Positions 34,342 to 53,671 of a stretch of DNA of 64,000 nucleotides are shown one piece after another. Under the pieces are notes generated by a model. It did not search any database and was not told where the DNA came from. It saw only the letters and a list, made by a program, of their open reading frames with translations. Location of the stretch: positions 10,912,001 through 10,976,000 of the forward strand of contig CM022677.1 of the NCBI GenBank assembly GCA_012295275.1. Reading direction: 5' to 3'. Numbering within the stretch: the stretch's first letter is position 1; each line of letters starts with the position of its first letter. A program made the position numbers and the translations under genes. The DNA comes from Chrysomallon squamiferum. Lineage: Eukaryota; Animalia; Mollusca.

Positions 34342-37300
34342 TTATTGGTCAACCTGTGGTGTAGCTTAAACTCGCACCTGCTCACCTCTTTCTAACATAG
34401 TTATTAGAAACAGACTTTAATGAAGAAATATGATTTTTTTACTCATATGCATGTGCCCATTACCTGTCTAGCTAACCATTTATTCATCACTCTCCTCTCT
34501 CTGTCTGTCTGTGTATATCTGTATTTATTTATATAATCATCTCTCATTCTCTGAAAAATCATACACACATGGCATACTTCTGTTTCATAATGAGGGCAAT
34601 ACCTGTTCTCTCTCTTAACACACAAACACGTAGAACCACACCTACATATCAGTCTCTCTCAGGCTAGCCATTTATCTATAATCTATCTAACACACATATA
34701 AACATTCTCTTATTCACACATTCAGTTATATACCAATCCTCTAACATAAATACAAATAATCATTATTATGAACCTATGTATGTATGTATCTTTTTATGTT
34801 GTATATCACTATGTGAATGTGTTTGTGTGTGTGTCCATCGATACATCTATATCTACCCTCTGTAACACACACATATATATACACACATAAATATATTCGC
34901 TCAAGTATTTATTTATATTTAATCTCTCTATCAATCATCTGACTCTTTCAAAAATCCACAAAAACACACTATCTCTGACACACATTTGTATGCCCCTTCT
35001 CTCTGACACATATATTTATACACACACACACATACAAATCAGTTTATCTATGTTAGCTGTATATATCTATCTATATATGTACCTAATTATTGTCTACCTA
35101 ACACATCAATCTATCTCTGAAGCGATGTCTAAACAATCTCTATATCAATCTATCTCACCTTCTCAGTTATACATAGCCACAGTCTATCTTGCACTCACAC
35201 GCACACACACAGTACGTATACACTCTCTCTATTTACATCCTTTTTAAGTATTTAAATACATTCTTTCTATCTAGTTACCTATCTATAAATATATTTATTT
35301 ATCTATCTATTTATGCCATATACATAAGGAACAGAGTTAGTCTTTCTTACAGATGTGCAGGTATATTCTCATTCATCCTTGCATCTAGTTCTAGTAATCT
35401 ATCTACCTTTCTTCTGTCTATAAACTTACCTGTCTGTTATCATCTACCATCTATCCATCCTTTTTTACACACACACACACACACGTAGTTACTTATCCTT
35501 TTATATACATATACGTGCTAATCAACTTCTAAACATACAAATACATTATTATTCCTATACACGGTGTGTGTATGTATATATGTATGTATGTATGTGTGTA
35601 TATCTATATGGAGAGATCCATCTCTCCAACCAGCGTCAGTGAAAATTATTTATTTCATTTTACTTTATTTTATTTCAGTTATTTTATTTTACTTTTATTT
35701 ATTTACTTATTTTTTAAATTTTGGTATTTATTTTTTCTTGGCTGACGATATCGTAATAAAAAGTGAAAAAAAATAAAAAATAGTACGAAATGGGTGCGTA
35801 GTGATATATTACGTCAACGTCAGAAAATAAAAAAGAATAAAAAAAGAAATGTTACCACATTTTCAGTAATTGCTACAGAGTATTAGCCATCTATGTATAA
35901 AAGACATTGGTTATATGACTTTCTTCTCCAAATTACTTTTCATGATCCATGTAGAATTATTGCATTATAAAGGTCTACATGTTTAAACGTGTGTAAATAT
36001 TGATCGGCGTTCGTTGCTGCCATCTTGGATTTCGCTCGGAAGGTTCCGTGAGGTCACGGAAGTTTTTATACTTCCAAATACAATTATTTTACGTCTATTT
36101 TCTGAACGTTTTATGATTTACAAGATAAAGATGGTTGTTCATATTAAAAAACTGTGATCTCTTTTGCCTTTCCTAACTATTTTTACAACTAAAATAAATG
36201 AAATAAATAAATAAAATAAATAAATAAAATTAAATAAAATGGCAATTTTACAATAATTCATCAAATACTAATATCACGTTAAATAAACCAAAACACTATA
36301 CAGAATTGGTTATTTTCATCTAAAAGCAACAAATCTAATTTACCGTTACCTCGCCAGTGCGAGGAGTAATTTATTTCAGAAGTTCGTGGTCTAAGAGAAA
36401 CAACTCTATTTAACACGCACGTTGGTAAATATACAAATAAGACTGAGTGTTGAGTAAGATAAAAAAAAGTAAAAATAAAATAAAATAATTCAAGTCTCCT
36501 GAATATAGATCATTCACTGAATTTACTAGATTCATTCAAATTATTTTTTTAAAGCTAATTTGGGGTAATTCTGGCCTCCGAGGTATATTATGACTTGCAG
36601 CCGCTATACTGCATTTTGAGGTTTCAAAAGTGAGTGTTAATTTTTAGTCCTATAGACATAAGGTTAGTGATAAATTATAACAGGTAAATATAATCGGTTT
36701 TTAAGTTCAGCTTGAAGAAACTTGATTAATATGTGATAATTAGGCAAGAAATATGTTTTTTATTTTACTCCATTACTTGGGGCAATACAATCAAAAGGAT
36801 GAGGTCTGCCGAGGAATTGACAGAAGAAGAAAGTGTCAAGAGGTATGAAGAAGAATTGGCAGAGAAGAAGAAGGAGGAGGAAGAAAAGGCAAAGAAAGCA
36901 ACTTTTTAGTTGAACCGGTGGATGCAGCCAGAGAAAACGTTGATGGTGATGAGCCTGAACTAGAAGACAGAGATGTAGAAGATACACAAGAAAAATGTGA
37001 ACTCTGTGGCAGAATGGATGATGGAATAAATTCTGAGGAGTTCATAGAATGTGACGGGTGCCCAAATTGGTATTGTCTTGATTCTTGCGCAAATCTTGAA
37101 ATCCCAGCTGGTGCAGACTTTAAAGATATTGCATTCTTGTGTGATGTTTGTCAAGGAGTTTAGTTTAATGAATGTGACTTGTATTATGATTAGGACTAAT
37201 TATTATTAGTAGTAAACAATGATTATATAGCAATAATCAGTCCAACAAATTTGAGGACCAAATTACTATTATATTTATCATTTTAAGTAGTATTATTGCA

Positions 37301-40300
37301 ATTAGTGTTGTTTTTATCGTTAATGTCGTTATGTCAGTATTACAGTCGTCATTATAAATAAAGAAAAATTTTCAACAAATAAACAGATAGAGAGATAGAC
37401 ACACACACATACACAGTCACACACACATAGAAAAGAAATAGCTTGGTATACGTGTTTGCCTTAGAGGATATTTATATACGAAAGTTCGTATCAGTGAGAC
37501 GGTGTTTATGTATATAGTTAAATAACAGACAGATAGATACATTGATGTAATAGCGCAGTATATTTACAGAACTTGTGTTATAATAAACAAGATTCATCTC
37601 GCGCATCCTCGCCTTTTCACTTTACTTTTAATAATAAAAACGTCTATTAATGTTTCTCTATATTCTAGACTTTTCTAGTAGATGCACTTGCAAATATCAG
37701 TAACATGGTGATGTTAATTCATCTTAATCTAGCCTCTCACCTCTCAACTGCAATTCTACTATCTTAATAAAAAAAGAAAAAAGAAACAACAACAAAAACA
37801 CAAACAGAATAAACGTTGATTCATGATTCAACTTGTTAGATACGTTATACCTGTTAATGAAAAATTAAGCTTATTATTTATTATCCAAAATAAAATTATC
37901 TAATATTGTTAATTAAAAACCAATATCTCTATTTTTCAATACATAATATTACCTTTACGCCTCTGTTACATAAAACATGTAATATAAATAGCCCAATCTA
38001 CATTTCTGAATGTACACAGTGTTTTCGCAGTAAAATCAAACCTGTAATGTTTACTATAATGCTACAGTACACACATAAAACAACAACAACAACGACAACG
38101 ACAACGACAACAGCAATAGAAGAAAATAAAATTTTAATCTTTATTGATTTCTTTACTTCTCAATATCCATAAGACTTCAAACGTTAACATCATCGCTCCA
38201 GTCTGGATGTCAATATATTTTATGACGTAGCTATAGCTTCACACAGACAAGTATACTGGAGATATCCACTTTTCAATCCTCTTTTTTGACAAACAGAACA
38301 TTAAAAAAAAAAAGAGAGAATGAGCGAGACAATTATTTGAGAATAATAATAATAATAAATAAATAAATAAATATTTACATCGTATAATAAAAACATTTTT
38401 TTTATAATTTAGTATGTAGGTGAGAGGGGTGTACTGAACATATTAAATGGGCTTCTGGAGGTTTTTTTTTTTTTTTTTTTAATCTTGGAAAGGTGAGAAG
38501 AGGATAGATTAATAATATGAGATTTTATAACTTGACACATTACTTACATTTACTAACGCAGAATGCGCAAGATAAATATTTTGTTTTATAGAAGATCAGT
38601 GGATAATGAGACTTATAGCGCACGCTTGTGGATTAACGTCATTTTTTATTGACTGTATTAGAGATTATACAAGAAACAAAGTCACATTATTATTACAGAT
38701 AAAACTAAATCTCTAAAACCGTGAATCAAAAACAGAACATAATACGCTGCAGCGAAATATAGAGTTATGTACCCTTTTTTCAACAGTAGCTGTAGAACTG
38801 ATACATAGCGAGTTAGCATTTAACCAGAATATTTTAAGAAATGTGGTTCTTGTAGTCCTAAACAACGGCGAGTGTTTTGTGAAGAAACGTTTGGGTGAAA
38901 CTTGTGAAGACAAGTCTGGCTGTGCAGACGTGTAGCTGACGTGTACTGGATAACACGTGTTTCAGTAAAAATTCTGCTGTCCAGTTTTATTCTTCCAAAA
39001 GTATTTGAGTGTTTACTGAAACACGAAACTTTGACGTACAGTGTAGTTTTCTATGGACAAATTGCTGGACGGAATTAACGTTCTATAAATTAACAAGATT
39101 TCTGCTTTATAAACTGAGATCCATCCAAAAATAGCTTGAAATATTATGAATACCTCTATTTACACTGATTATCTTTAATTGAAATAAATAAATAAATATA
39201 TAAATAAATAAATAAATATAATTTTAATTTTAATACCGACTGCACAATTTATATAATGGATGTTGGATATTAATAGTATGTACCATTATATATGTATTTG
39301 AGATGGGCTAGTTTAATCTGATATTTTAAAAGCTTCAGGTAAGATTGTATTTTTATGATGCAAAATAGAGATAAAACATAATAAAACATCACATTATTTT
39401 CACAAAGTATCAATAAACGTCGCAGGTTTTATACATAAAATGTGAATTACGTCGCGTTTTAGAAAACAGAAAACTTAGCTAATCTGTGAATTTTAATTTT
39501 AATGTCGTTTGCTTTGCAAACTCAAATTTTGTCATTCAACTTCTCACGTGTTCAGTATTAATTTTATATATATATATATATATATTTTTTTTTTTCTTGA
39601 GAAGAAATAATAACTCAGTTTAACAGAAAAATATTTTGCAAAATATTGCTTCCCCTGTGTATCTAGTCATTAAGTTATTTATTTTTGAATTTGGAAGTTC
39701 ATCACTGAATGCCATTATAAAATAAAAGGTCAGATCCATATAAATGTGATATTTGATTAACAGCAGAACAGATTACATTACTTCACGTTAATACATAAAA
39801 CCAGCGACGTTTATATTATAAATTGATACTGAGTGAAAATAACGTGATGTTTTATAATATTTTCCTATATTTTGCTTATTAAAAAATACTGATAAATTCA
39901 CGTACATTTTATTCTACTAACAGTCATCAATGACAGACTTTTCATCCTCTGACAACTGATAGACCATTAACATTTGTAATAATAAAATATTCCAGTTTTA
40001 TGTTATTTTAGTCTTTAGAAATCTGCACTCTGTCTAAAATGGTATATCACGTTGTTCTCAGTGAATCATCCGGTTTTGACAGCGTGAACTGTATTTATTT
40101 TTATTGTTTATATTTTAATTATTTATCACATATTAATAGATACGTTATATTGTTTATAGTAATTTGATATTCCTGGAACGTATCTACACATTTACATTTA
40201 TTACTCATTATACAGCTATATACGACGTTTCGTTATCAGCGATTTTCTGTGGTGTGCAATGACGAGAACCCCACAAACAGAAGAAAGAAAGAAACTACAG

Positions 40301-42361
40301 CTGAAGGGAGATTACTCTCATATAATTTTTTATTTCGGGGGGATGCTGGATTTCTACTTTTATTTGCGGTATTTGTTATTTATGGTTTTTCTCAGTTAAA
40401 TGTAGATTCTAAGAATCATGAAGAGTTGATCTCTTTATATATACAGGTATAATATTTTTTTTTTTTTTTTTTTTTTTTTAATTCTTTATATACTTTGGAG
40501 TACATGTTTGTAATTTAGTTTGTAAAATGTTTCGACGTCTGCTTTATGGAAAGTTTTCAAGGGCAGATAACCGATAATGAATTATTAAACAATACGATGT
40601 AGAATCTTGTCACAAGACTCGAGTGTAATTTTTTTCTTCAGAAATTTTGCTGCATTTTTATTGATCACTCAACAGAGTAATCAGTTATATTTTGCTTTTC
40701 ATTTAAATTATTATATAATTTTATTTAGCAGCTATGTAATAGTATTTTCAAAAATATAATTATCTTTTAAACTATATAACTTATAACTATACAATGACAA
40801 GAAAAAAATAAAAATAAAAAATAAAAAGGAGATTAAAATCACTCGAAAATATCATTGATATGATTGATGTGAAGGAAGTAACGAATTTTTATCTGAATAA
40901 AATTTGCTTGGTATTTTTCCTTCATAATCTGTGGAAAATCTGTGGAAAATCTGTGGAAAATCATTTCAGTCATTTGGCAAACAGAATACTGAATATCTCA
41001 TACAGTTTCAAACCAGTATACACACGTTTTATATCAAAATGATGATTTCTAAAGCTCTACAGTATTATCCACAAAACTGTTATTTTTATTACAGTATTTT
41101 AAAGCATGATGCAGAAATTAACAAATTTTAATTAATTGCACTAAATAACTCAGATGTACCTCACTGTTTAATTATTAATTTCCCAATTTAAGTAGCTGTT
41201 AGTTCATTTATTTCGTTATGAAATTTGGCAGAGTATAAAGGAAACTATAAACTTGTCTGTCATTTCTCAGTTGTTCACATATCTAGAAACAAATATGAAA
41301 ATGCAGCTGAATATATATAATACATGATATTTTTTTTTTTTTTTTTAGAAAATAATAGCAAAACAGAAACACAACTGAGGAAAACCCTTTCAAGGAAGGA
41401 AATTAAGATTACAAAAATGAGTTGACCTTTGCAGCAGCAAAGAGACAGCTTTACATAAGATTTAGCTAAACTGATAAATGTCTTCCTTATATTTGAATAA
41501 TCTGCAAGTCTTTGAATGAATCAGTGTAAAAGAGAGAAAACAGATTTCAATATTGCCTAAAATACTACAATGCCTCCACTTAATTTCACAATAAAATGTT
41601 TTCTTTTTTCTTTTTTAGGAGATCTCACTGTGTTGAAGATATAAGTCAACATGACAAATTTCAGTTGTATCCAGTTTTAGTTCACGTTGTATCTTATACA
41701 TCAGTCAAACAATGTGGAAATATTCAGATTTTAGGAAAATAAATTTTGTTTCGTCTTCACTAAAGAAGATCATTTCTGCTTGTTCTCTCAGTCATGATGC
41801 TGTTCAGAGAATCCATTGTTACTTTAAATTCAAACTATAAAACTATGTAATTTATCTGTATTTTTGTAATAATGAATAACAGCTGAAGGCTTCTAGTTTC
41901 AAGATTTATATCTGATTATCTACAAAATTTCTGACACTGTTTATTTTTTATGTATATATAATTATTGTTCTCGAACAAGATAGCAGCCATCATGTGGCAA
42001 TTCTGTGTAAGATTCTTCGAACATCAAATAAAACTGTAAATCTGTAAAGATCGGCAATCATCCCGCAATCATTTCCGCAACTAATACACCAAAAAAAAAA
42101 AAAAAAAAAAAAAATGCAATGCAAATAAAACAAATAAAGGAATATAATAACCTTTATTAAAATATACGTACTAATTATAAATCGATGTGGTTCTTTTGTC
42201 AAATAAACGGTGTTGTTATTTCCGCCTCTCCTACCTTTTCTTTCTTCTTCTTAATTTATTTATGTTAAATAAAATCACAAAGTGTAGAACTCATTTTAAA
42301 CTGTGTATTCTGGGTAACGTGTTTCATATATGAAAACTGTGCGTTAAAACAACAAATAATC
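34342..42361 (+). repeat. Right arm of an approximately 8-kb inverted duplication
   Basis: Starts ttattggtcaacctg (mirror of 33626-33640) and ends gtgcgttaaaacaacaaataatc (mirror of about 25735-25757). It carries an extra approximately 270 bp at about 38006-38277. Confidence 0.95.
36760..37163 (+). pseudogene. Mirror copy of the PHD-finger transposase remnant
   Basis: Same peptide as 30723-31195 with an additional deletion near 36900. Confidence 0.6.
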
Positions 42362-45939: not shown

Positions 45940-47309
45940 CAATTGAACTTTTATAAAATCACATTTAACTAAAGAATATCGCTGTTTACATTGATAATGT
46001 TACTCATCGATAACAAAATAAAACGCAAGTTTTATAACATCTGTATTATTTATATGAGAAATTAAAATTACATTAATTAGAGATTATCAATTATATAATT
46101 GAATAAACATGGAATTTCATTCTAGATTAACTTACATTTCTCAGTGTTTTAAAAAAATAATCTGATATATTCTTAAATACATAATTTGATAAATTTGAAT
46201 TTTAGATTAATCATGTACTTTCATGTAGGGAGAGATGTAAATTGTGTCGCGGAATGTCATGTTACTGCAGTCATAAAACAAAGTATCACATTGTGACACT
46301 GAAAGGTGCAGAGTTAATTTTCAGCAATATCAATACAATAATAAATACAATATTCATCTAGCACTTCACGCGTTTCTGTACAGTCTTATTATTGTTAATA
46401 ATAAAATAACTTATTATTAAAGACCATAATTTTTCAATATATAAGGAGGACATTAATTTGGGGAAAAACATAATAATATTAATATTAATTGTCGTTTATA
46501 ATAAAATATTTCCTTCTTCTGAGGCCTTGAGTTGTTTTTGATCAGAGGACTGGTAAATTTCAGATTTGTCGTATATGTAATGTTAGTTGAAGGCGTTTTT
46601 CAGGTTTCCAAATAAAGATCACACATTAATTCTAAAACCAAGGGTTCTTTTTAATATTATTTTGTATTTAAATCTATTTATGTGTAAGTAAAGTACCTTT
46701 TGTAAACTGCGAATGTGAAAAAAGGACTCAATATTTTTATTGAAATGTACGCAAACTAATAAAAACATGTTCCTTATATTAATTCAGGTCTTTTGTTTTA
46801 TGATTTAGAGTCAGCGATCAAGTGGGTTAAGAGAATTTACACTTGAAGAAATCACAGTTGTTTTCACACGAGTGTTTACAATAATCTATGAAAAAGGATA
46901 GATTTACAGAGATAGGTTTCATGCTGAAGTGTGCACTTGTTTAACCAACACAGCATGTTTTTCTGGGACGACCGAGTTCAAGATTAATAAACTGTAATGA
47001 AAATTATAAAGAACATTCACAAATTTCTTCACTCGAATATTTAGATTACTGTTACAGAAATATGTTCAAAGTTTTTGGTAGCGATGTTTATTGCATTCGT
47101 AACAGTTCATTCAAATTTATCTTAAAAATGCATTACTAATGAAAAACAAGGAAACAAAAGAAAATGAAAACAATTATATTTATTTTAATAAATATCAACT
47201 ATTAATTTTAATAATTTTAAACAATAAGTTTAAGATAAACAGAAGACAGCAGGATACAGATCTAGGGTGTGGTGTGTTAACGTATTTATGTGATGAGGAA
47301 ATATCCCAA

Positions 47310-47448
47310 ATGCTCCTTTGGGCGCAGCCTTCGGGTGTTAAAGTGTATTTGGTCAAAAAGCCAAAAGCCAGTATGTGTAACTTTGGGTTTTTTCACACCA
47401 CAAGAGTAAGGTTGAAATATATCGTGATTTTCACACATACATTTTTTT
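47310..47448 (-). repeat. Viral terminal repeat / half hairpin, left copy
   Basis: atgctcctttgggcgcagccttcggg..aaaaagccaaaagccagta..cacaagagtaaggttga is the diverged reverse complement of 51090-51217. Confidence 0.85.
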
Positions 47449-47746
47449 CTTTGCCATCATCAATATATCACATGACTAATTTTTATTATAAATATACAAC
47501 ACTACTAAAATATTTCATTTGCAAATTAATATTGCATGAGATAACATGTTGATAGAAACCAAGCTAATTGAATGTGCATTGGAATTGGAATTTGCAACTG
47601 ATGCATCAACAGTATTAGAATCAACAGTACCAGCAGTACCAGCAGTAGCAGAAGTCATTGGCGCTGATAATATATTTCTCGACGAAGCAACTGGATTAGC
47701 AGAAACGGTTGTTGAATATTCAATAGAATCTATTGCAGATTGTAAG

Positions 47747-47860
47747 TTACGCTGCGTATTAATGCAGTTAAGAGTATTTTATGTTATACTTAACGTCACG
47801 TGTTTTTACGTCACTTTGATGACGTAATATTAATTTGCTATAAATAAAGCTGACTTTCAA
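47747..47860 (+). promoter_or_regulatory. Viral promoter copy 1 (CRE-like ACGTCA, E-box CACGTG, TATA)
   Basis: CACGTG at 47797-47802, two further ACGT motifs, TATAAATA at 47839-47846. Conserved in three copies. Confidence 0.7.
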
Positions 47861-48031
47861 ACGTTCTCTTGTTCGTCGCAGACGTGCTTCACAACAGCTT
47901 GCTCTGATTAGCACGTTAATTTTTTTCCAATTCCAATTCCAACGTTCTCAGTCGTTCGTCATTAATTGAAATGTAAAGATGTTCCGAATATTAAAATACT
48001 TTATATAAAAGCACTAATTGAAAAATAGATC

Positions 48032-48430
48032 AACATAGGTCCCAAGGACTATGATTTCGTCCATCCACAGTATCTTACAGCAAGAGCCCTTGCTAAAGAC
48101 AAAGATGGCAAATACGTAAAAAACTACATCAAAAGCTATATGATGGACCGTCAAGGTATGCTAGACAAAACAGCTGACCACTGGTCAACTCCACTCACAG
48201 AATATCTACAAAAGGGTCATCACAGAAATAAAAACTTTGCTCAGAAACAAGAATTGGAAGTGATAGCCAACTACCCGAAGGATCAGATCAAACAGGCAAT
48301 TGAAGAATTTCCTACCATTATTGAAGACGCAAACACATCTGAAAAGCATATTAATAATAAAGAACAACAACAACAAAAACAAGAGGAAGAAGAACACGTA
48401 AATTATATGAATATATATAAACCTATTTAA
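48032..48430 (+). pseudogene. Viral leader ORF A (unknown function), copy 1
   Basis: Reads NIGPKDYDFVHPQYLTARALAKDKDGKYVKNYIKSYMMDRQGMLDKTADHWST..., downstream of promoter copy 1. It is homologous to 50214-50630. Confidence 0.65.
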
Positions 48431-48729
48431 TGAGAAAAAGATTGCTTGATAAAAAAGAAGTGACACGTCTTTGGGCTATAGCAAAATCTAAAGCCGTTAG
48501 TATACTAGAACATCTGAATGTGCCTAGGGATAAAGCTAAAAAAAAAAAGTGGTTACAAATTCGACGTAGATATCCAAATCTACAAATTCCTAATTCAGAT
48601 TTCTGTTCGGCAAAACATAATCTTTGGGAAGAGTATAACGATCCTAAAAATTCGGACGAAGAAGACCGTTTTGATTCACCTTTATACTCAGAAGAGCAAC
48701 AACAAGAACAAACAGAACCAACAAAATAA
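48430..48729 (+). CDS. Viral ORF B (99 aa, unknown; possibly a VP N-terminal extension)
   Basis: ATG-initiated open frame between ORF A and VP, joined to both by TAATG stop/start overlaps. It has a basic cluster (KAKKKKW) and an acidic tail. Confidence 0.5.
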   Translation: MRKRLLDKKEVTRLWAIAKSKAVSILEHLNVPRDKAKKKKWLQIRRRYPNLQIPNSDFCSAKHNLWEEYNDPKNSDEEDRFDSPLYSEEQQQEQTEPTK

Positions 48730-49930
48730 TGCAGGCACAGAAAAGAAAAAATACAGAGGAATCCTTGAATCCGCCACCTGATAAACAACGGAAAAATAAT
48801 CCAAAATTATCTACAACAGAATCGGAAGATGTAGTGGATAACAGCGAATCTAAAGAAACCTACTTACAACCAGAAGAGAGAGTAATGGATACAGATTCTG
48901 TGTCTGGAAATGAAATTACTGACACTGGTGGTAGCGAGGCTGTTCAAGGAGCACCTATGGCATCTGCAACAGGAAACAATGTGCTTTACCAAGGTTTCGG
49001 AGGAACTACCAAAGGTACCGGTCCTAGGTACATTAAAGTAAAACGTACAATTAAACGGACTTTTACTAGTGTACTTACTAGATCCTTGTATTTGTAAGTT
49101 TGTTTTCAATCACGGTGGTCATATTATACCATACTGGTATAAGCAAGCCAGTACGAAACCTGAAGACTGGAATTTGCCAGATGAATGTGTAGGTTACAGA
49201 ATAAACAAATTTGGTTTCAATATAAACAACATGATGATTCATGTGGTAAATAACAGCACATCAGATTCTAATGAATTTCCTGTTATGTCTCCAACTAATG
49301 CTAGAGTGTGGACGTTTACTGATATACATAACGATTACGGTATACCAGATGACGATGATAATAAAAAAAGTCACAATGATTTATTTAGAGACGAAGAATG
49401 TATGAATCATACAGCTAATAGAGCTATATCGAAACAACCTGATAGAAACATTTATCTACCAGGTGATATAGGTATTCAATTACTGAACAATGCTTGGAAA
49501 AAAAGAAGTGATTTAGAATATGAAGCAATTACACCTTATTACATATATGTAACATGATGGTTTACAGAGAAACTGTGACCAGTGCAGGAGGATTTGCATT
49601 AGATTACACATGCAAAGATGCTCCTTTAGTATTGTTTCCAAGAGAAACCAGTCATAACTTAGCATTTACTCAAGTAACGGGCAATGTAAAGAAAAGCAAC
49701 TATCAGTGTAGTAATGAGAACTCGGAAACTTTAGAAGTATGGCCTACTCACGAAATAACTGTGACTAATACAACACAAGATTCAATGGGAAGTGTAATGA
49801 CCAGTTACTTCAATCATCAATATAGAAATATTGATTACAAAGCATGCTTTCAAAATTTAGCTGGTGAACAATTAGGTGTACCAGCTATGGCATAACGGAA
49901 AACCTGGTTGACTTTTCATATCCTATTTAA
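48729..49930 (+). pseudogene. VP: Parvovirus capsid protein (VP), frameshifted and internally deleted
   Basis: Three consecutive ORFs (48729-49097, 49069-49557, 49554-49895). A Gly-rich N-terminal stretch (GFGGTTKGTG) is followed by HIIPYWYKQASTKPEDW..GYRINKFGFNINNMMIHVV..NARVWTFTD..YGIP, which parallels the parvoviral jelly-roll pattern SPxDW..GFR..FKLFNIQVKEV..QVFTDxxYxLP. After a frameshift it ends ..ITENLVDFSYPI* at 49930. Confidence 0.85.
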
Positions 49931-50019
49931 ATAGTTAAAATTAGTTAATAATTATTATGTTTACATATATATGTTTATTGTTTAAGCAATTTATTATATT
50001 GTTAATGAACTATTTGTTG

Positions 50020-50110
50020 TTACGCTGAGTATTTATACAGTTATAACGTTATACATAACGTCACGTGTTTTGACGTCATGTAAATTTGGGTATAAATAAA
50101 GGTTGCTCTT
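50020..50110 (+). promoter_or_regulatory. Viral promoter copy 2
   Basis: CACGTG at 50062-50067, TGACGTCA at 50071-50078, TATAAATA at 50091-50098. Confidence 0.7.
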
Positions 50111-50213
50111 AAATGTTTTCAATGTTTTCAGTCGTTTGTCCGTTAATTGAAATAATAAAACAAAGAAAAAAATAAAAATAAAAATAAAAAAAATAAAAAA
50201 CCTGGAGAGATAT

Positions 50214-50637
50214 TTGGACACAAAAGAAGACATGCATTATTACTCGATTATTATCGGTTATAAGGATTATGACATGCTCCATCCTAACTTTCTTACTGCT
50301 CGAGCTCTCGCCAAGGAAAAAAACTGGAAGTATGTTTATGCGTTTGGGAAGAACTACATAAAAAGTTTTGTTATGGACAGTCAAGACATGTTAGACAGAA
50401 CGTTGGACCATTGGTCCACCCTACAAACAGAGGTCAAGATCGCGTTGTCATTGAAGTGAAGACATTGCTAAGAAACAAAAATTCGAAGGTCCTCGTAGTC
50501 TTTCACGATAAATCGTGCAGTATGCACCTGAATATACCAACATACGGCAGTCTCTTGCACATATTGCGGAATACTACGATGACGACTCCGAGCCAAGATC
50601 GCCAGTACCGGAGACATCACAGGGCAGTTTAAAATAA
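50214..50637 (+). pseudogene. Viral leader ORF A', copy 2 (frameshifted)
   Basis: Reads IIIGYKDYDMLHPNFLTARALAKEKNWKYVYAFGKNYIKSFVMDSQDMLDRTLDHWST. Homology to ORF A continues in shifted frames (IAKKQKFE..IVQYAPEYTNI). Confidence 0.65.
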
Positions 50638-50647
50638 GAAAGGCTAT

Positions 50648-51094
50648 ATGAAGATACGAAAACTGAGACAGCCGAATCTTCTGATGAACCAAGAAAAGGA
50701 ATGGTTAAAGGAAGGCATGAATATAAACGCAGATAACTTGTTTGATGGAGAAGCTGTGGACAAAGACATGCGCCACTGTACAGTACAGCCTCCAAAGAAG
50801 AAGATGACCGTCCAGGAATTTCTGAATCGAAATAACAATGTTCTGGGACAAAATCAGAATCAAAATCACGGGCTAGGAGAAACCGTTCAAGAAGCTAGAA
50901 ACAGTGAAGTAACTTTAATTGATGATGATTGTGATGAGCACATTGAAACAATGGATCAGAATAATCAATCAGACAACTTAGCAAAAACTCGCATTCCTAC
51001 TTACCTCTTGACAAATAAATCGGCGGGAACTTTCGACTTCTTCTACAAATTAAAAAAAGTATATAGGGTGGGGGAAGTGAAAGACAAGACGTGA
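50648..51094 (+). CDS. Viral ORF truncated by the terminal repeat; possibly the NS1 N-terminal region
   Basis: 148-aa frame with an NLS-like PPKKK that runs into the terminal repeat at about 51060. No HUH motif is visible, so the NS1 assignment is positional inference only. Confidence 0.4.
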   Translation: MKIRKLRQPNLLMNQEKEWLKEGMNINADNLFDGEAVDKDMRHCTVQPPKKKMTVQEFLNRNNNVLGQNQNQNHGLGETVQEARNSEVTLIDDDCDEHIETMDQNNQSDNLAKTRIPTYLLTNKSAGTFDFFYKLKKVYRVGEVKDKT

Positions 51095-51219
51095 TATACT
51101 GTCAACCTAACTCTTGTGATTTGTAAAAAAATCAAAGACCCTCATTACTGGCTTTTGGCTTTTTCACCAAATGTACTTTTAAACCGAAGGTGCTTTCGCT
51201 TCGCCCGAAGGAGCATAAG
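51064..51219 (+). repeat. Viral terminal repeat / half hairpin, flip isomer
   Basis: tagggtggggg..ggcttttggctttt..aatgtacttttaaa followed by ccgaaggtgctttcgcttcgcccgaaggagcataa. Confidence 0.85.
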
Positions 51220-51247
51220 AATATAACGTCATAACGAAAAGGGAAAT

Positions 51248-51501
51248 AATGTCATCTCAAAATAAAGCAAGTAGGGTGGGGGTAGTGAAAGATATATTTC
51301 AACCAAACTCTTGTTATTGTAAGAAAAACAAAGATCTTCACTAGTTGCTTTTGGCTTTTTTGATCAAGAGACGAAATGTACTTTTAACCCGAAGGTGCTT
51401 TGGCTTCGCCCGAAGGAGCATAAGTTAAAAGTACATTTGATCAAAAAAGCTAAAAGCCACTAGTGAAGATCTTTTTTACAATAACAAAAGTTTGGTTGAA
51501 A
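51248..51501 (+). repeat. Complete viral hairpin telomere (about 200-nt imperfect palindrome), flip isomer
   Basis: Stem 51297-51388 pairs with 51424-51501 around the asymmetric tip 51389-51423. It is preceded by AATAAA and a GGGTGGGGG box. Confidence 0.9.
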
Positions 51502-51640
51502 AGTTTGGTTATTAACATTAAAGTTGTAAATGTTGAATTTTAATAAATTGCTGTTGTAATAATTAAAATATTAATTAAATATTTATTGTTTTAATATACC
51601 TAGTTTTTTTTTTATATTAATTAAATTATATTTCTTAATT

Positions 51641-51824
51641 ATGTCATCTCTAAATAAAAAATGTAGGGTGGGGGGAGTGAAACGTAAGACGTGATATATT
51701 TCAACCAAACTCTTGTTATTGTAAAAAAAAAAAAAAGGTCTTCACTAGTGGCTTTTGGCTTTTTTGATCAAAAGACCAAATGTACTTTTAACTTATGCTC
51801 CTTCGGGCGAAGCCAAAGCACCTT
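51641..51824 (+). repeat. Viral terminal repeat / half hairpin, flop isomer
   Basis: The same stem (..aatgtacttttaac) is followed by ttatgctccttcgggcgaagccaaagcacctt, the reverse complement of the tip in the other copies. Confidence 0.88.
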
Positions 51825-51838
51825 TTTTATTTGACCAG

Positions 51839-52527
51839 CTAAAACAAAAAAAAGACAAAAATTAAACAATGTTGCGATGTGTTATCGAAACAGACATTAA
51901 AGTATAAATATTTACAATCAATACTTTTATCGTCTATTAATGGATTCTTTTTATCTATGAAATATTGTCTCTCCTTTTCCAACGCGATGATCATTTCATC
52001 TTCTGTGGGTTCAGTGCACATCGAAAATAGTTTTGGGTGAAGAACATTGACCAAGAACGTCACTTCTTTTCAGATCTTCTATGAAATAAAGTCTAGTTTT
52101 CATTATACTCATCTGAGATGATGTCAAGCCATGTCCGAAAGGTATATTGCTGTTAAGCAAGCAAATGCTCGCCTTACAATAGACTGGCGTTGTCCCTTTC
52201 CTCTAGCATGTGACTTTGCTTCCACTCAAAAGGTCTTTATATTTGTCTATATTGGTTTGTGTTAAAGATATTTCCTCGCCGAGTACGATCTTTTTATCTG
52301 CCAGGGAAAATTATCTTTTGCACTTTTCCCGACAGATGTCATTGTTTCGAATAAGCTGGAACTAAGCATCGTTTTCCCACTGTCACTTTCTCCTTGTAAA
52401 TAGATACCAATTTTTTCTTCCCTTTCCCTTTTAGTAAAGTGTTTATTAGGACACAGAGCCATCTTTCTGTGATCGACTGTTCTTTACACCAGGAATTAAA
52501 CATTTTGACCCAATCTTCTGGTGTCAT
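51839..52527 (-). pseudogene. NS1: Parvovirus NS1/Rep SF3 helicase domain, 5'-truncated, with frameshifts and a stop
   Basis: Minus-strand translation across frameshifts gives Walker A IYLQGESDSGKT (GESDSGKT at 52370-52393), then FPWQ, Walker B KIVLGEE, motif B' KDLLSGSKVTC*RKG, motif C ICLLNSN and a putative Arg finger KTRL. Confidence 0.93.
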
Positions 52528-52534
52528 ATAGTTT

Positions 52535-52645
52535 TAAAGTCAGCTTTATTTATAGCAAAATTAACGTCATCAAACTGACGTCGAAACACGTGACGTCATG
52601 TATAACATTAAAGACTTTTAACTGTATCAATACGAAGCGTAATAA
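52535..52645 (-). promoter_or_regulatory. Viral promoter copy 3
   Basis: TGACGTCA at 52591-52598 overlapping CACGTG at 52587-52592, and TATAAATA on - at 52547-52554. It points into the NS1 fragment. Confidence 0.7.
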
Positions 52646-52744
52646 CAAATAGTTCTTTAAATAATAAATTAATTATAACAATTAAAATATATAACTACAA
52701 CAAGTATTAATAACTATGAATACTTTTTTAAGAAGTTAAACTAA

Positions 52745-52948
52745 TTAAATAGGATATGACCAATCAGTTTCATTTTCGGTGACAGGTACAGTTCTGTCAC
52801 CATATGTTCCAAGTATGGGCCAAACAACTCGTCTTCTAGATTTTTGTCTGCCCCAGTTATCCCATATTGGTGCATCTAATCTTAATTGCCATGCTTTCTT
52901 TATTCTATCATGATCTTTCTTCTTTGATACATACACACATAAGCACAT
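52745..52948 (-). pseudogene. C-terminal fragment of a second viral ORF copy (probable VP end)
   Basis: Ends VTENETDWSYPI*, matching ITENLVDFSYPI* at the end of the + strand VP (49892-49930). Both are followed by a similar AT-rich spacer and promoter. Confidence 0.6.
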
Positions 52949-53149
52949 AAATGTATTTCTTTTATTTATTTTTTATTTATTTTTTATTTGTTTGTCATCC
53001 ATTTTGCAATCCAGTGCCTGCTGTGAGCATTATTAGAGATTTTAAAAATTAACTTTGTAATATGATTTTAAATAATTACATATATTTATCTTGTCAAACA
53101 CTTTATAGTTGGTAAACAATTTAAGCAAATACTTTCAGGTATACATACT

Positions 53150-53426
53150 TTTGATCAATAACCTGCCTTATAACGTAATCGGTATAACATGAATTCATAT
53201 ATAATTTTATATACCTGATCAATAACCTGTCTTATAATGTGATCTGTATAACATTAATTCATAGATAATTTTGTATACTTCATCAATAACTTGCCTTATA
53301 ATGTGATCGGTATGACATTAATTCATATAAAATTCTGTATAACCTGATCAGTAACCTGTCTTATAACATGATCAGTATAACATTAATTCAAAGATAATTT
53401 TCTACACCTGATCAGTAACCTGTCTT
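53150..53426. repeat. Tandem repeat, about 64-bp unit, 4-5 copies
   Basis: tgatcaataacctg(c/t)cttataa..g..atc.gtataacattaattcata recurs at about 53152, 53216, 53280, 53345 and 53408. Confidence 0.9.
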
Positions 53427-53671
53427 GGAATTGCATGGCACAAAATCATGTATTGACAGCAGCAGACAGTATTGACAGAACAACTGAAACACTCACTAAG
53501 CTTTGAGCAGGCAAGTTAATATTTTATTCAATTTCTACATAAAAGAAATTCATTTTAATACTAGATTTCAAGCACAATTAAAATGTTTTTAATTTTAATT
53601 TTTAAATTATTTATTAAAATATGTTTTTATTTATTTATTATATATTTATTTATTTACTTTCACACTTACAG

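What the first reader, a model, noticed from the sequence alone, without database searches (positions are those of the whole stretch)
47310..52950. Endogenous parvovirus with an apparent capsid-before-replicase, duplicated-promoter genome layout
Seen: between inverted terminal repeats (47310-47448 and 51064-51219) the order on + is promoter, ORF A, ORF B, VP(..SYPI*), AT spacer, second promoter, ORF A', truncated ORF, telomere. A second, diverged copy on - again reads ..SYPI*, AT spacer, promoter, then NS1 helicase. So in two copies the capsid-end sequence runs straight into a promoter with no hairpin between. Known: monosense Parvoviridae place NS first, next to the left hairpin, and ambisense densoviruses transcribe convergently from the ends. 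Inference: the source virus was ITR-[P-A-B-VP]-[P-A'-NS1]-ITR. Alternatives are a fusion of two segments of a bipartite densovirus (as in Acheta domesticus segmented densovirus) or a circular/concatemeric form. I do not recognise this organisation.
Basis: partly seen in the sequence, partly recalled or inferred. Interest (0 to 1): 0.9.

Follow-up and report, generated by a model that had tools for sequence, protein, structure and literature searches.

The report
Parvovirus fossils with capsid gene first
Several different fossil copies of a parvovirus-like virus in this host's DNA carry the end of the capsid gene directly in front of the replication gene's predicted promoter, likely reflecting a virus with the reverse of the usual gene order, while the doubled gene block seen at this one site is likely a patchwork of broken copies.

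Summary
The element is real: a 5.6-kb mosaic of defective endogenous parvovirus-like copies with four hairpin telomeres, one in flop orientation. Against intact unnamed relatives, ORF B is the VP N-terminus, A' plus the 'truncated ORF' is NS1 aa 17-309, and ORF A is a second, decayed NS1 5' end from a sister lineage. Other copies join straight across the promoter-A piece, so the duplicated-promoter genome is not supported. The core observation holds and is stronger than stated. SYPI* is the VP C-terminus. VP end, short AT spacer, promoter with no hairpin appears in both window copies and in up to four further sequence variants in read contigs. Other copies link left telomere, a small acidic ORF (L) and VP. 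Best reading (0.55): a linear, monosense parvovirus ordered ITR-L-VP-promoter-NS1-ITR, the reverse of described monosense genomes. It rests on overlapping short contigs; no intact NS1-end-to-telomere junction was seen. Main rival (0.28): ordinary NS1-VP units in hairpin-less head-to-tail arrays, with L as the NS1 tail.

The parts
46647..47319 (.). Host interspersed repeat forming the left flank; runs into the tip of telomere T1 with about 10 nt of microhomology, no target-site duplication found
   Evidence: 85% to window 12728-12043; junction comparison
47310..47450 (-). T1, left telomere (partial hairpin, inverted relative to T2-T4; lacks the G-rich inner motif of T2-T4)
47487..47494 (+). TATA-like box, predicted left promoter for L and VP
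   Evidence: motif scan only; function inferred
47546..47743 (+). ORF L, 5' part (small acidic ORF, ATG start)
   Evidence: adjacent to the telomere in another copy (X5 record 19, 47363-47716); joined in frame to 48283 in other copies
47747..47862 (+). P1, promoter-like copy (ACGTCACGTG, TATAAATAAA), start of a piece absent from other copies
   Evidence: joint 47741-48283
47875..47927 (+). 3' end of a very abundant host repeat, likely a retroposon, inserted in the P1 leader between 9-nt direct repeats at 47860 and 47941
   Evidence: depth and loose ends; direct repeat; no Rfam match
48029..48260 (+). 'ORF A' 5' part: decayed NS1 N-terminal fragment of a sister lineage (aa 33-115 of P0022), frameshifted and cut off
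   Evidence: tblastn 50%, E 5e-16; 162 of 230 nt identical to A'
48261..48430 (+). ORF L, 3' part; its stop overlaps the VP start codon (TAATG)
48430..49930 (+). VP gene, broken: 'ORF B' = aa 5-56, then aa 103-203, 230-384, 392-501 in shifting frames; about aa 502-684 missing; ends SYPI*
   Evidence: tblastn with P0002, 50-62% identity, E 2e-117; VP-like by Atlas, score 0.94
49931..50018 (+). AT-rich spacer, no hairpin, no telomere similarity
50019..50112 (+). P2, internal promoter-like sequence upstream of NS1
50202..51052 (+). NS1 aa 17-309 (A' plus 'truncated ORF'): nuclease region and linker, broken by frameshift, stop and deletion, cut off at T2
   Evidence: tblastn with P0022, E 5e-54; X7 record 26 carries about 95 more letters at 50674
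51052..51219 (+). T2, right telomere, inner arm and loop (flip)
51245..51501 (+). T3, telomere with full hairpin 51297-51501 (flip loop)
   Evidence: (z -15)
51637..51824 (+). T4, telomere inner arm with flop loop, preceded by 135 nt of AT-rich DNA
51875..52530 (-). NS1 aa 379-603, SF3 helicase region with Walker A, broken by frameshifts and a stop
   Evidence: tblastn with P0022, 74% over aa 458-543, E 6e-49; P0022 hits PF01057 above cut-off
52531..52654 (-). P3, promoter-like copy joined directly to the helicase region by a deletion
52745..52909 (-). VP C-terminus, aa 637-690, ending SYPI*, followed by an AT spacer (52744-52655)
   Evidence: tblastn with P0002, 50%, E 4e-16

Best explanation
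The locus is a chromosomal patchwork of broken copies of a parvovirus-like virus whose linear genome likely ran, on one strand, left telomere, small ORF L, capsid gene, short spacer, internal promoter, NS1, right telomere. Shown: the gene identities, the flip/flop hairpins, and each adjacency from telomere to L to VP to promoter to NS1 in window or read contigs. Inferred: that these adjacencies describe one molecule of roughly 5.5-6 kb; that it replicated by the rolling-hairpin route with NS1 as nickase and helicase; that NS1 was made from the internal ACGT-box promoter while L and VP were made from a TATA box beside the left telomere, with VP translated by stop-restart at the TAATG overlap; and that NS1 bound at the telomere switched on that left promoter late. 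Also inferred: this site arose when defective or concatemeric DNA of at least two virus lineages recombined and integrated by end joining (microhomology, no target duplication), which brought in the extra P1-NS1 fragment, and then decayed.
For: VP end to promoter with no hairpin in up to six sequence variants: window copies 1 and 2 (contigs in 4 of 5 non-RNA runs); a ~96% paralogue (X6 record 20, 49892-50674-51098, with 657 further letters on the VP side; X7 record 25); an 86% variant whose 1029-nt contig has only 189 letters beyond the VP end, 88 of them matching the promoter side (X2 record 6, joint 52674-52742; 2 of 4 runs); a 25-letter-spacer variant (joint 52634-52745, 6 of 6 runs, but only 24 letters on the short side); and an 82-85% family (joint 49892-50071, side 31, 2 of 6 runs). 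None of the 15 joints shown in either call links VP end to a telomere or a telomere to a promoter (45 and 22 rows not shown). Telomere to L in another copy (X5 record 19); L 5' to L 3' (4 of 6 runs); L 3' to VP in the diverged family (joint 48323-48454, side 51, 4 of 4 runs). T2-T4 share a G-rich inner motif and T3/T4 have AATAAA just inside, while T1 has a TATA box and ATG inside. The two NS1 5' copies diverged under selection: 24 of 41 differences at third codon positions, p 0.0008; 34 of 48 residues kept versus 21.7 expected, 0 of 2000 simulations, so the variants look like replicating lineages, not decay of one insertion.
Against: No single contig or read spans the unit; the order is stitched from short contigs of different copies. 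Both NS1-to-telomere junctions in the window are truncations (aa 309 and aa 603), so an intact NS1 end beside a telomere was never seen. L 5' resembles the acidic C-terminal tail of relatives' NS1 weakly (17 and 35 of 2000 shuffles in a post hoc test on the last 130 aa; 7 and 28 of 500 on whole proteins, with an equally good hit elsewhere in P0030; L 3' 219 and 252 of 2000), which would make L-VP the usual NS1-VP junction. The selection test covers NS1 5' ends, not the junction. Two of the joints have short sides, which the tool flags. Depths are not copy numbers. The one distant locus found, L001 (24% identity), has NS1 upstream of a large ORF on the same strand, the usual order. No promoter was tested.
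Confidence: 0.55

Rival explanations
1. The virus had the ordinary order promoter-NS1-VP. What is seen are head-to-tail arrays or circles whose junction lost the hairpins, L is the NS1 C-terminal tail, ORF A is an internally deleted NS1, and telomere-L junctions are deletion products amplified in the host.
For: Weak L-to-NS1-tail similarity at the expected position. The A-to-L 3' junction is then one intragenic deletion, shared by the ~96% paralogue (X6 record 17, X7 record 21). Relatives' contigs hold several NS1 and VP copies each: three VP C-termini on contigs of length 297,455. Head-to-tail or circular forms are reported for PPV4, PPV5, AAV and bocavirus (PMC3676418, passages), and jumbled parvoviral EVEs in shrimp (PMC8982415, passages).
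Against: Needs the hairpin to be lost at the same junction in up to six variants with different spacers, with no telomere trace in the two window spacers, while no telomere-to-promoter or VP-to-telomere joint shows up among the rows listed. L has its own ATG and TATA-like box. The similarity test is post hoc and not significant for L 3'.
Confidence: 0.28
2. The virus was bipartite like Acheta domesticus segmented densovirus, and the window shows a VP segment and an NS segment fused at integration.
For: Each cassette has its own promoter-like start. A bipartite parvovirus exists (PMC10267136, abstract and passages).
Against: AdSDV segments each carry hairpins at both ends; here the fusion point has none in any variant seen. 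A fusion old enough to be in all variants is the same as the best explanation.
Confidence: 0.07
3. One reading: one source genome with two promoter-ORF A blocks, ITR-[P-A-B-VP]-[P-A'-NS1]-ITR.
For: The P1-A-L 3'-VP arrangement is also in a ~96% paralogue, and A differs from A' mainly at third codon positions.
Against: A is a frameshifted NS1 fragment and B is VP. Other copies skip P1-A in 4 of 6 runs. The paralogue has a different lesion in A. P1 interrupts L.
Confidence: 0.05
4. The VP-before-promoter order is a one-off rearrangement at this locus, or an assembly error.
For: The locus is heavily rearranged, and jumbled EVEs are known.
Against: The junctions are in read contigs of three studies, and the same order is in copies at 82-96% identity, including a run that lacks this locus's right flank (X6, depth 0.58 at 52876-53050).
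Confidence: 0.05

Closest known systems
Monosense Parvoviridae (Parvovirinae, Hamaparvovirinae and the invertebrate subfamilies split from it)
   Same: NS1 with HUH-type motif and SF3 helicase (PF01057; AAV Rep is the closest solved structure, E 9e-10), a VP on the same strand, hairpin telomeres, size range. No PLA2 motif in VP, as stated for hamaparvoviruses (PMC11357303, passage).
   Different: PMC11357303 section 1.1.1 (read) states that all parvoviruses carry NS genes on the left and VP on the right. Here VP precedes the NS1 promoter on the same strand. No named close relative was found; subfamily not determined.
SwaBA megaparvovirus-like lineage (PMC13426907, sections 1 and 3.3.1 read)
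   Same: Likely homotelomeric invertebrate parvoviruses with extra ORFs between the left telomere and NS1, and complete EVEs.
   Different: There the upstream ORFs are a PLA2 protein and an unknown protein, and NS1 and VP are the two 3' ORFs; here the capsid gene itself is upstream of NS1. Sequence relationship not tested.
Acheta domesticus segmented densovirus (PMC10267136, abstract and passages)
   Same: NS and VP cassettes have separate promoters.
   Different: Two segments, each with hairpins at both ends; here no hairpin between VP and NS1.
Head-to-tail or circular parvovirus forms (PPV4, PPV5, AAV, bocavirus; PMC3676418 passages) and the jumbled IHHNV EVE of Penaeus monodon (PMC8982415 passages)
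   Same: VP end can sit before the NS promoter in such forms; integrated parvoviral DNA with repeated partial termini and promoters matches this locus.
   Different: Those are by-products of genomes with the typical order. Here the junction recurs across diverged variants and the telomere abuts ORF L.

Membership tests
Parvoviridae | NS1 with SF3 helicase domain | tested here: met
   Window 52530-51875 aligns with P0022 aa 379-603; P0022 PF01057 32.9 bits vs cut-off 20; profile hits AAV Rep at E 9e-10. The window fragments alone gave no Pfam hit above cut-off.
Parvoviridae | N-terminal HUH endonuclease in the same protein | tested here: met
   At motif level only: H-x-H and a downstream Tyr in 6 of 6 relatives; Atlas hits are all Rep/HUH-type but score under 0.9; no usable fold. 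Window 50432-51052 covers this region in decayed form.
Parvoviridae | Parvovirus-type jelly-roll capsid protein | tested here: inconclusive
   Atlas best hits are parvoviral VP clusters, 0.94, 210 of 256 features, but no Pfam or PDB sequence hit and the single-sequence model failed, pLDDT 31.
Parvoviridae | Terminal palindromic hairpins | tested here: met
   T3 hairpin z -15; flip and flop loops; four copies.
Parvoviridae | Linear ssDNA genome of about 4-6 kb packaged in T=1 particles | not testable with these tools
   Only integrated, broken copies and short contigs are available.
Described monosense parvovirus layout | NS cassette next to the left telomere, VP next to the right | tested here: not met
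   VP end is followed by the NS1 promoter in all variants seen; no telomere-promoter or VP-telomere joint among rows shown. The NS1-end side remains unseen.
Bipartite parvovirus (AdSDV type) | NS and VP on separate segments, each with its own hairpins | tested here: not met
   No hairpin or telomere similarity between VP stop and promoter.
Any named subfamily or genus | SF3 phylogenetic placement with named members | not tested
   Homolog searches returned only unnamed proteins; no tree was built.

The most novel reading that the evidence does not exclude
A circularly permuted parvovirus lineage: the telomeres moved into the acidic tail of NS1, leaving nuclease and helicase at the right end under an internal promoter and the detached tail (L) at the left end as a leader gene still coupled to VP by its stop-start overlap. 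The permuted form replicated long enough to diversify and colonise the host germ line many times.
Probability: 0.2. Interest if true: 0.85.

Novelty: new variant of a known kind. Interest (0 to 1): 0.6.

Why it matters
NS-left, VP-right is treated as a family-wide rule for parvoviruses (PMC11357303). A lineage with VP first would show that the rule is not a mechanistic requirement, and it would reverse which promoter sits at the telomere, which bears on how NS1 times capsid expression. It would also give a natural case of genome permutation in a linear hairpin-ended virus. The proteins are far from any named parvovirus in the searches run. If the rival holds, the finding drops to an ordinary rearranged EVE of a divergent lineage.

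Tried and rejected
No host genome is held, so other copies could be seen only through read contigs. Searches for loci with context: 8 of 8 viral-contig scans gave none; 2 of 2 genome-contig scans none; the one metagenome scan gave one distant locus; one VP alignment was too patchy to search with. Pfam on 15 window frames gave nothing above cut-off. PDB sequence searches with the window helicase piece and with VP gave nothing. Both AlphaFold jobs were single-sequence and unusable (pLDDT 31 and 33), so no fold search was run. Rfam found nothing at 47200-48100. A minus-strand reading of 47518-47778 as a VP piece was dropped: no tblastn hit with P0002, and the plus frame has the coding-like bias. 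L as NS1 tail: inconclusive. Transposase-type insertion: no target-site duplication and the flanking repeat does not resume on the right. Expression: VP-family contigs are present in one RNA library (X7), but contigs cannot show strand or level and DNA may be present, so transcription is not claimed. 6 of 11 listed runs were laid; X4, X8-X11 were not. The host was not identified. Literature: ten searches found no report of a monosense VP-before-NS1 parvovirus; the library lacks most subscription journals and phrase matching is literal. PMC9896142 and PMC5013282 were seen as passages only and added nothing on gene order. No supplements were opened. Earlier scan findings: none on this family.
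Full report
Observation. Self-comparison finds the inverted repeats (47310-47423 vs 51216-51093, 77%), three promoter-like copies and the A/A' similarity. There are four telomere copies. T3 folds into a 205-nt hairpin, -70.4 kcal/mol, z -15. The loop of T4 is the exact reverse complement of the loop of T3 over 33 nt although the arms are in the same orientation; such flip/flop forms are the mark of rolling-hairpin replication (established knowledge, recalled). The two spacers after SYPI* do not fold better than shuffles (79 and 52 of 200 as good).

The locus is not an assembly error in the parts that matter. Eleven runs were listed and six laid. Contigs at about 99% identity cover 48204/48399-50150 and 51795-52915/52946 in X1, X2, X3 and X5, from three studies; one may be the window's source. 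No listed contig spans the whole element, and the 47741-47750 junction is not bridged in the rows shown. A host repeat inside P1 and host repeats on both sides show a chromosomal location. No genome is held and the host was not identified.

Gene identities. A search with the VP fragment found one unnamed cluster with intact 690-aa members. Against P0002, ORF B is aa 5-56, the following frames are aa 103-501, about aa 502-684 are missing in copy 1, and 52909-52748 is aa 637-690 at 50% identity, E 4e-16. So SYPI* is the VP C-terminus. The Atlas places this protein with parvoviral capsids (0.94, 210 of 256 features); Pfam, PDB and folding gave nothing. A search with ORF A found one protein, part of a family whose full member P0022 has 724 aa with an HUH-type motif, Walker A/B and motif C, PF01057 above cut-off and AAV Rep as closest solved structure. 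A' and the 'truncated ORF' are aa 17-309 of this NS1, the minus-strand piece is aa 379-603, and ORF A is a second NS1 5' end, aa 33-115, frameshifted. A and A' share 162 of 230 nt, with 24 of 41 differences in 48 codons at third positions (p 0.0008) and 34 residues kept versus 21.7 expected: two lineages that diverged while coding.

The duplicated block. Past 48260 ORF A reads into a sequence unrelated to the NS1 N-terminus. In 4 of 6 runs other copies join 47741 to 48283 with 10 letters between (sides 30-31), which by position keeps the frame of the ORF starting at 47546. So a small acidic ORF, L, lies between the left telomere and VP, and here it is interrupted by a promoter-plus-NS1 fragment. 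X5 record 19 links telomere to L in another copy, and a diverged family links L 3' to VP (joint 48323-48454, side 51, 4 of 4 runs). L has a TATA-like box at 47487 and its stop overlaps the VP start as TAATG. The P1-A piece is shared with a ~96% paralogue (X6 records 15-17, X7 record 21), so it belongs to a small defective subfamily rather than to this site alone.

Capsid before replicase. Beyond the two window copies, VP end runs into the promoter in the ~96% paralogue (X6 record 20, from a run that lacks this locus's right flank), in an 86% variant whose contig leaves at most about 100 letters for the spacer (X2 record 6 with joint 52674-52742, side 88), in a variant with a 25-letter spacer (6 of 6 runs, side only 24, which the tool flags as weak), and in an 82-85% family (joint 49892-50071, side 31, 2 of 6 runs, letters between not given). 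I infer that no telomere lies inside these joints, since a telomere-like piece would have been laid on T1-T4. Among the 15 joints shown per call none links VP end to a telomere or telomere to promoter; 45 and 22 rows were not shown.

How it likely worked. The simplest unit fitting all adjacencies is telomere-L-VP-spacer-promoter-NS1-telomere, about 5.5-6 kb by adding part sizes. NS1 would nick and unwind the hairpins. The internal promoter with ACGT boxes would be the early NS1 promoter and the TATA box by the left telomere would drive L and VP, with VP made by stop-restart; these steps are inference, with no promoter tested. The locus would be a recombined set of defective molecules of at least two lineages, joined to host DNA by microhomology without target duplication.

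What is against it. The order is stitched from short contigs of different copies. Both NS1-to-telomere junctions here are truncations, so the right end is unseen. L 5' resembles the NS1 acidic tail weakly: 17 and 35 of 2000 shuffles on the last 130 aa of two related proteins, post hoc, and 1976 of 2000 for a third; on whole proteins 7 and 28 of 500, matched by a hit of 10 of 500 elsewhere in P0030; L 3' is not significant. If L is the NS1 tail, L-VP is the ordinary junction and either the genome is circularly permuted (novel case) or the copies are hairpin-less head-to-tail arrays (main rival), as reported for PPV4/PPV5 and AAV (PMC3676418, passages) and in the jumbled shrimp IHHNV EVE (PMC8982415, passages). 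Relatives do occur as several copies per contig, but their order could not be read. The one distant locus with context has NS1 first.

Comparison with what is known. A review states that all parvoviruses have NS on the left and VP on the right (PMC11357303, section 1.1.1 read). The megaparvovirus lineage has extra ORFs before NS1 but keeps NS1 and VP as the 3' ORFs (PMC13426907, sections read). AdSDV has two segments with hairpins at both ends of each (PMC10267136, passages). Ten searches found no monosense VP-first parvovirus, within the limits of the library. The element works like a parvovirus and meets the NS1 and hairpin criteria; capsid fold is inconclusive, subfamily untested, and the usual layout is not met.

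Verdict. Observation partly confirmed, interpretation partly supported. New variant of a known kind, interest 0.6: VP-first linear genome 0.55, head-to-tail arrays of a standard genome 0.28, the rest small. Gene order on one natural long molecule would decide it.

Noticed in passing
window 47875-47927: A 53-nt piece of a very abundant host repeat (summed depth 12,000-76,000 in its bin) sits in the P1 leader between 9-nt direct repeats; loose ends show a conserved upstream continuation and variable A/T-rich tails, as for a 5'-truncated retroposon. It shows the element is chromosomal.
   Followed up: partly
window 47839, 50091, 52554: All three promoter copies have the TATA box fused with AATAAA (TATAAATAAA), and neither VP spacer has its own AATAAA on the coding strand; the VP polyadenylation signal may lie inside the NS1 promoter.
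   Followed up: no
run X6 against window 52876-53050: This run of the same organism lacks the right flank junction (depth 0.58) but holds paralogues, so the insertion looks polymorphic.
   Followed up: partly
P0001-P0027 (public contigs of 8,418, 60,905, 297,455 and 452,437 nt): A related family with intact 690-aa VP and 724-aa NS1 reading frames occurs as several diverged copies per contig in another assembly.
   Followed up: partly
P0029, P0030: Related NS1 proteins of 1014 and 982 aa with long C-terminal extensions, on contigs of only 4,301 and 4,224 nt.
   Followed up: no
L001 150-1187, 3129-4757: Distant parvovirus-like locus: NS1 helicase ORF (PF01057), two small ORFs, then a 542-aa ORF with no Pfam hit, all on one strand.
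   Followed up: partly
window 36849-37160 (+) and 31043-30726 (-): Two near-identical frames with a PHD-finger-like match below the Pfam cut-off, and another duplicated frame at 40168-40449 / 27906-27625; likely inverted arms of a host repeat.
   Followed up: no
window 53149-53431: Tandem repeat with a 64-65-nt period just right of the element.
   Followed up: no
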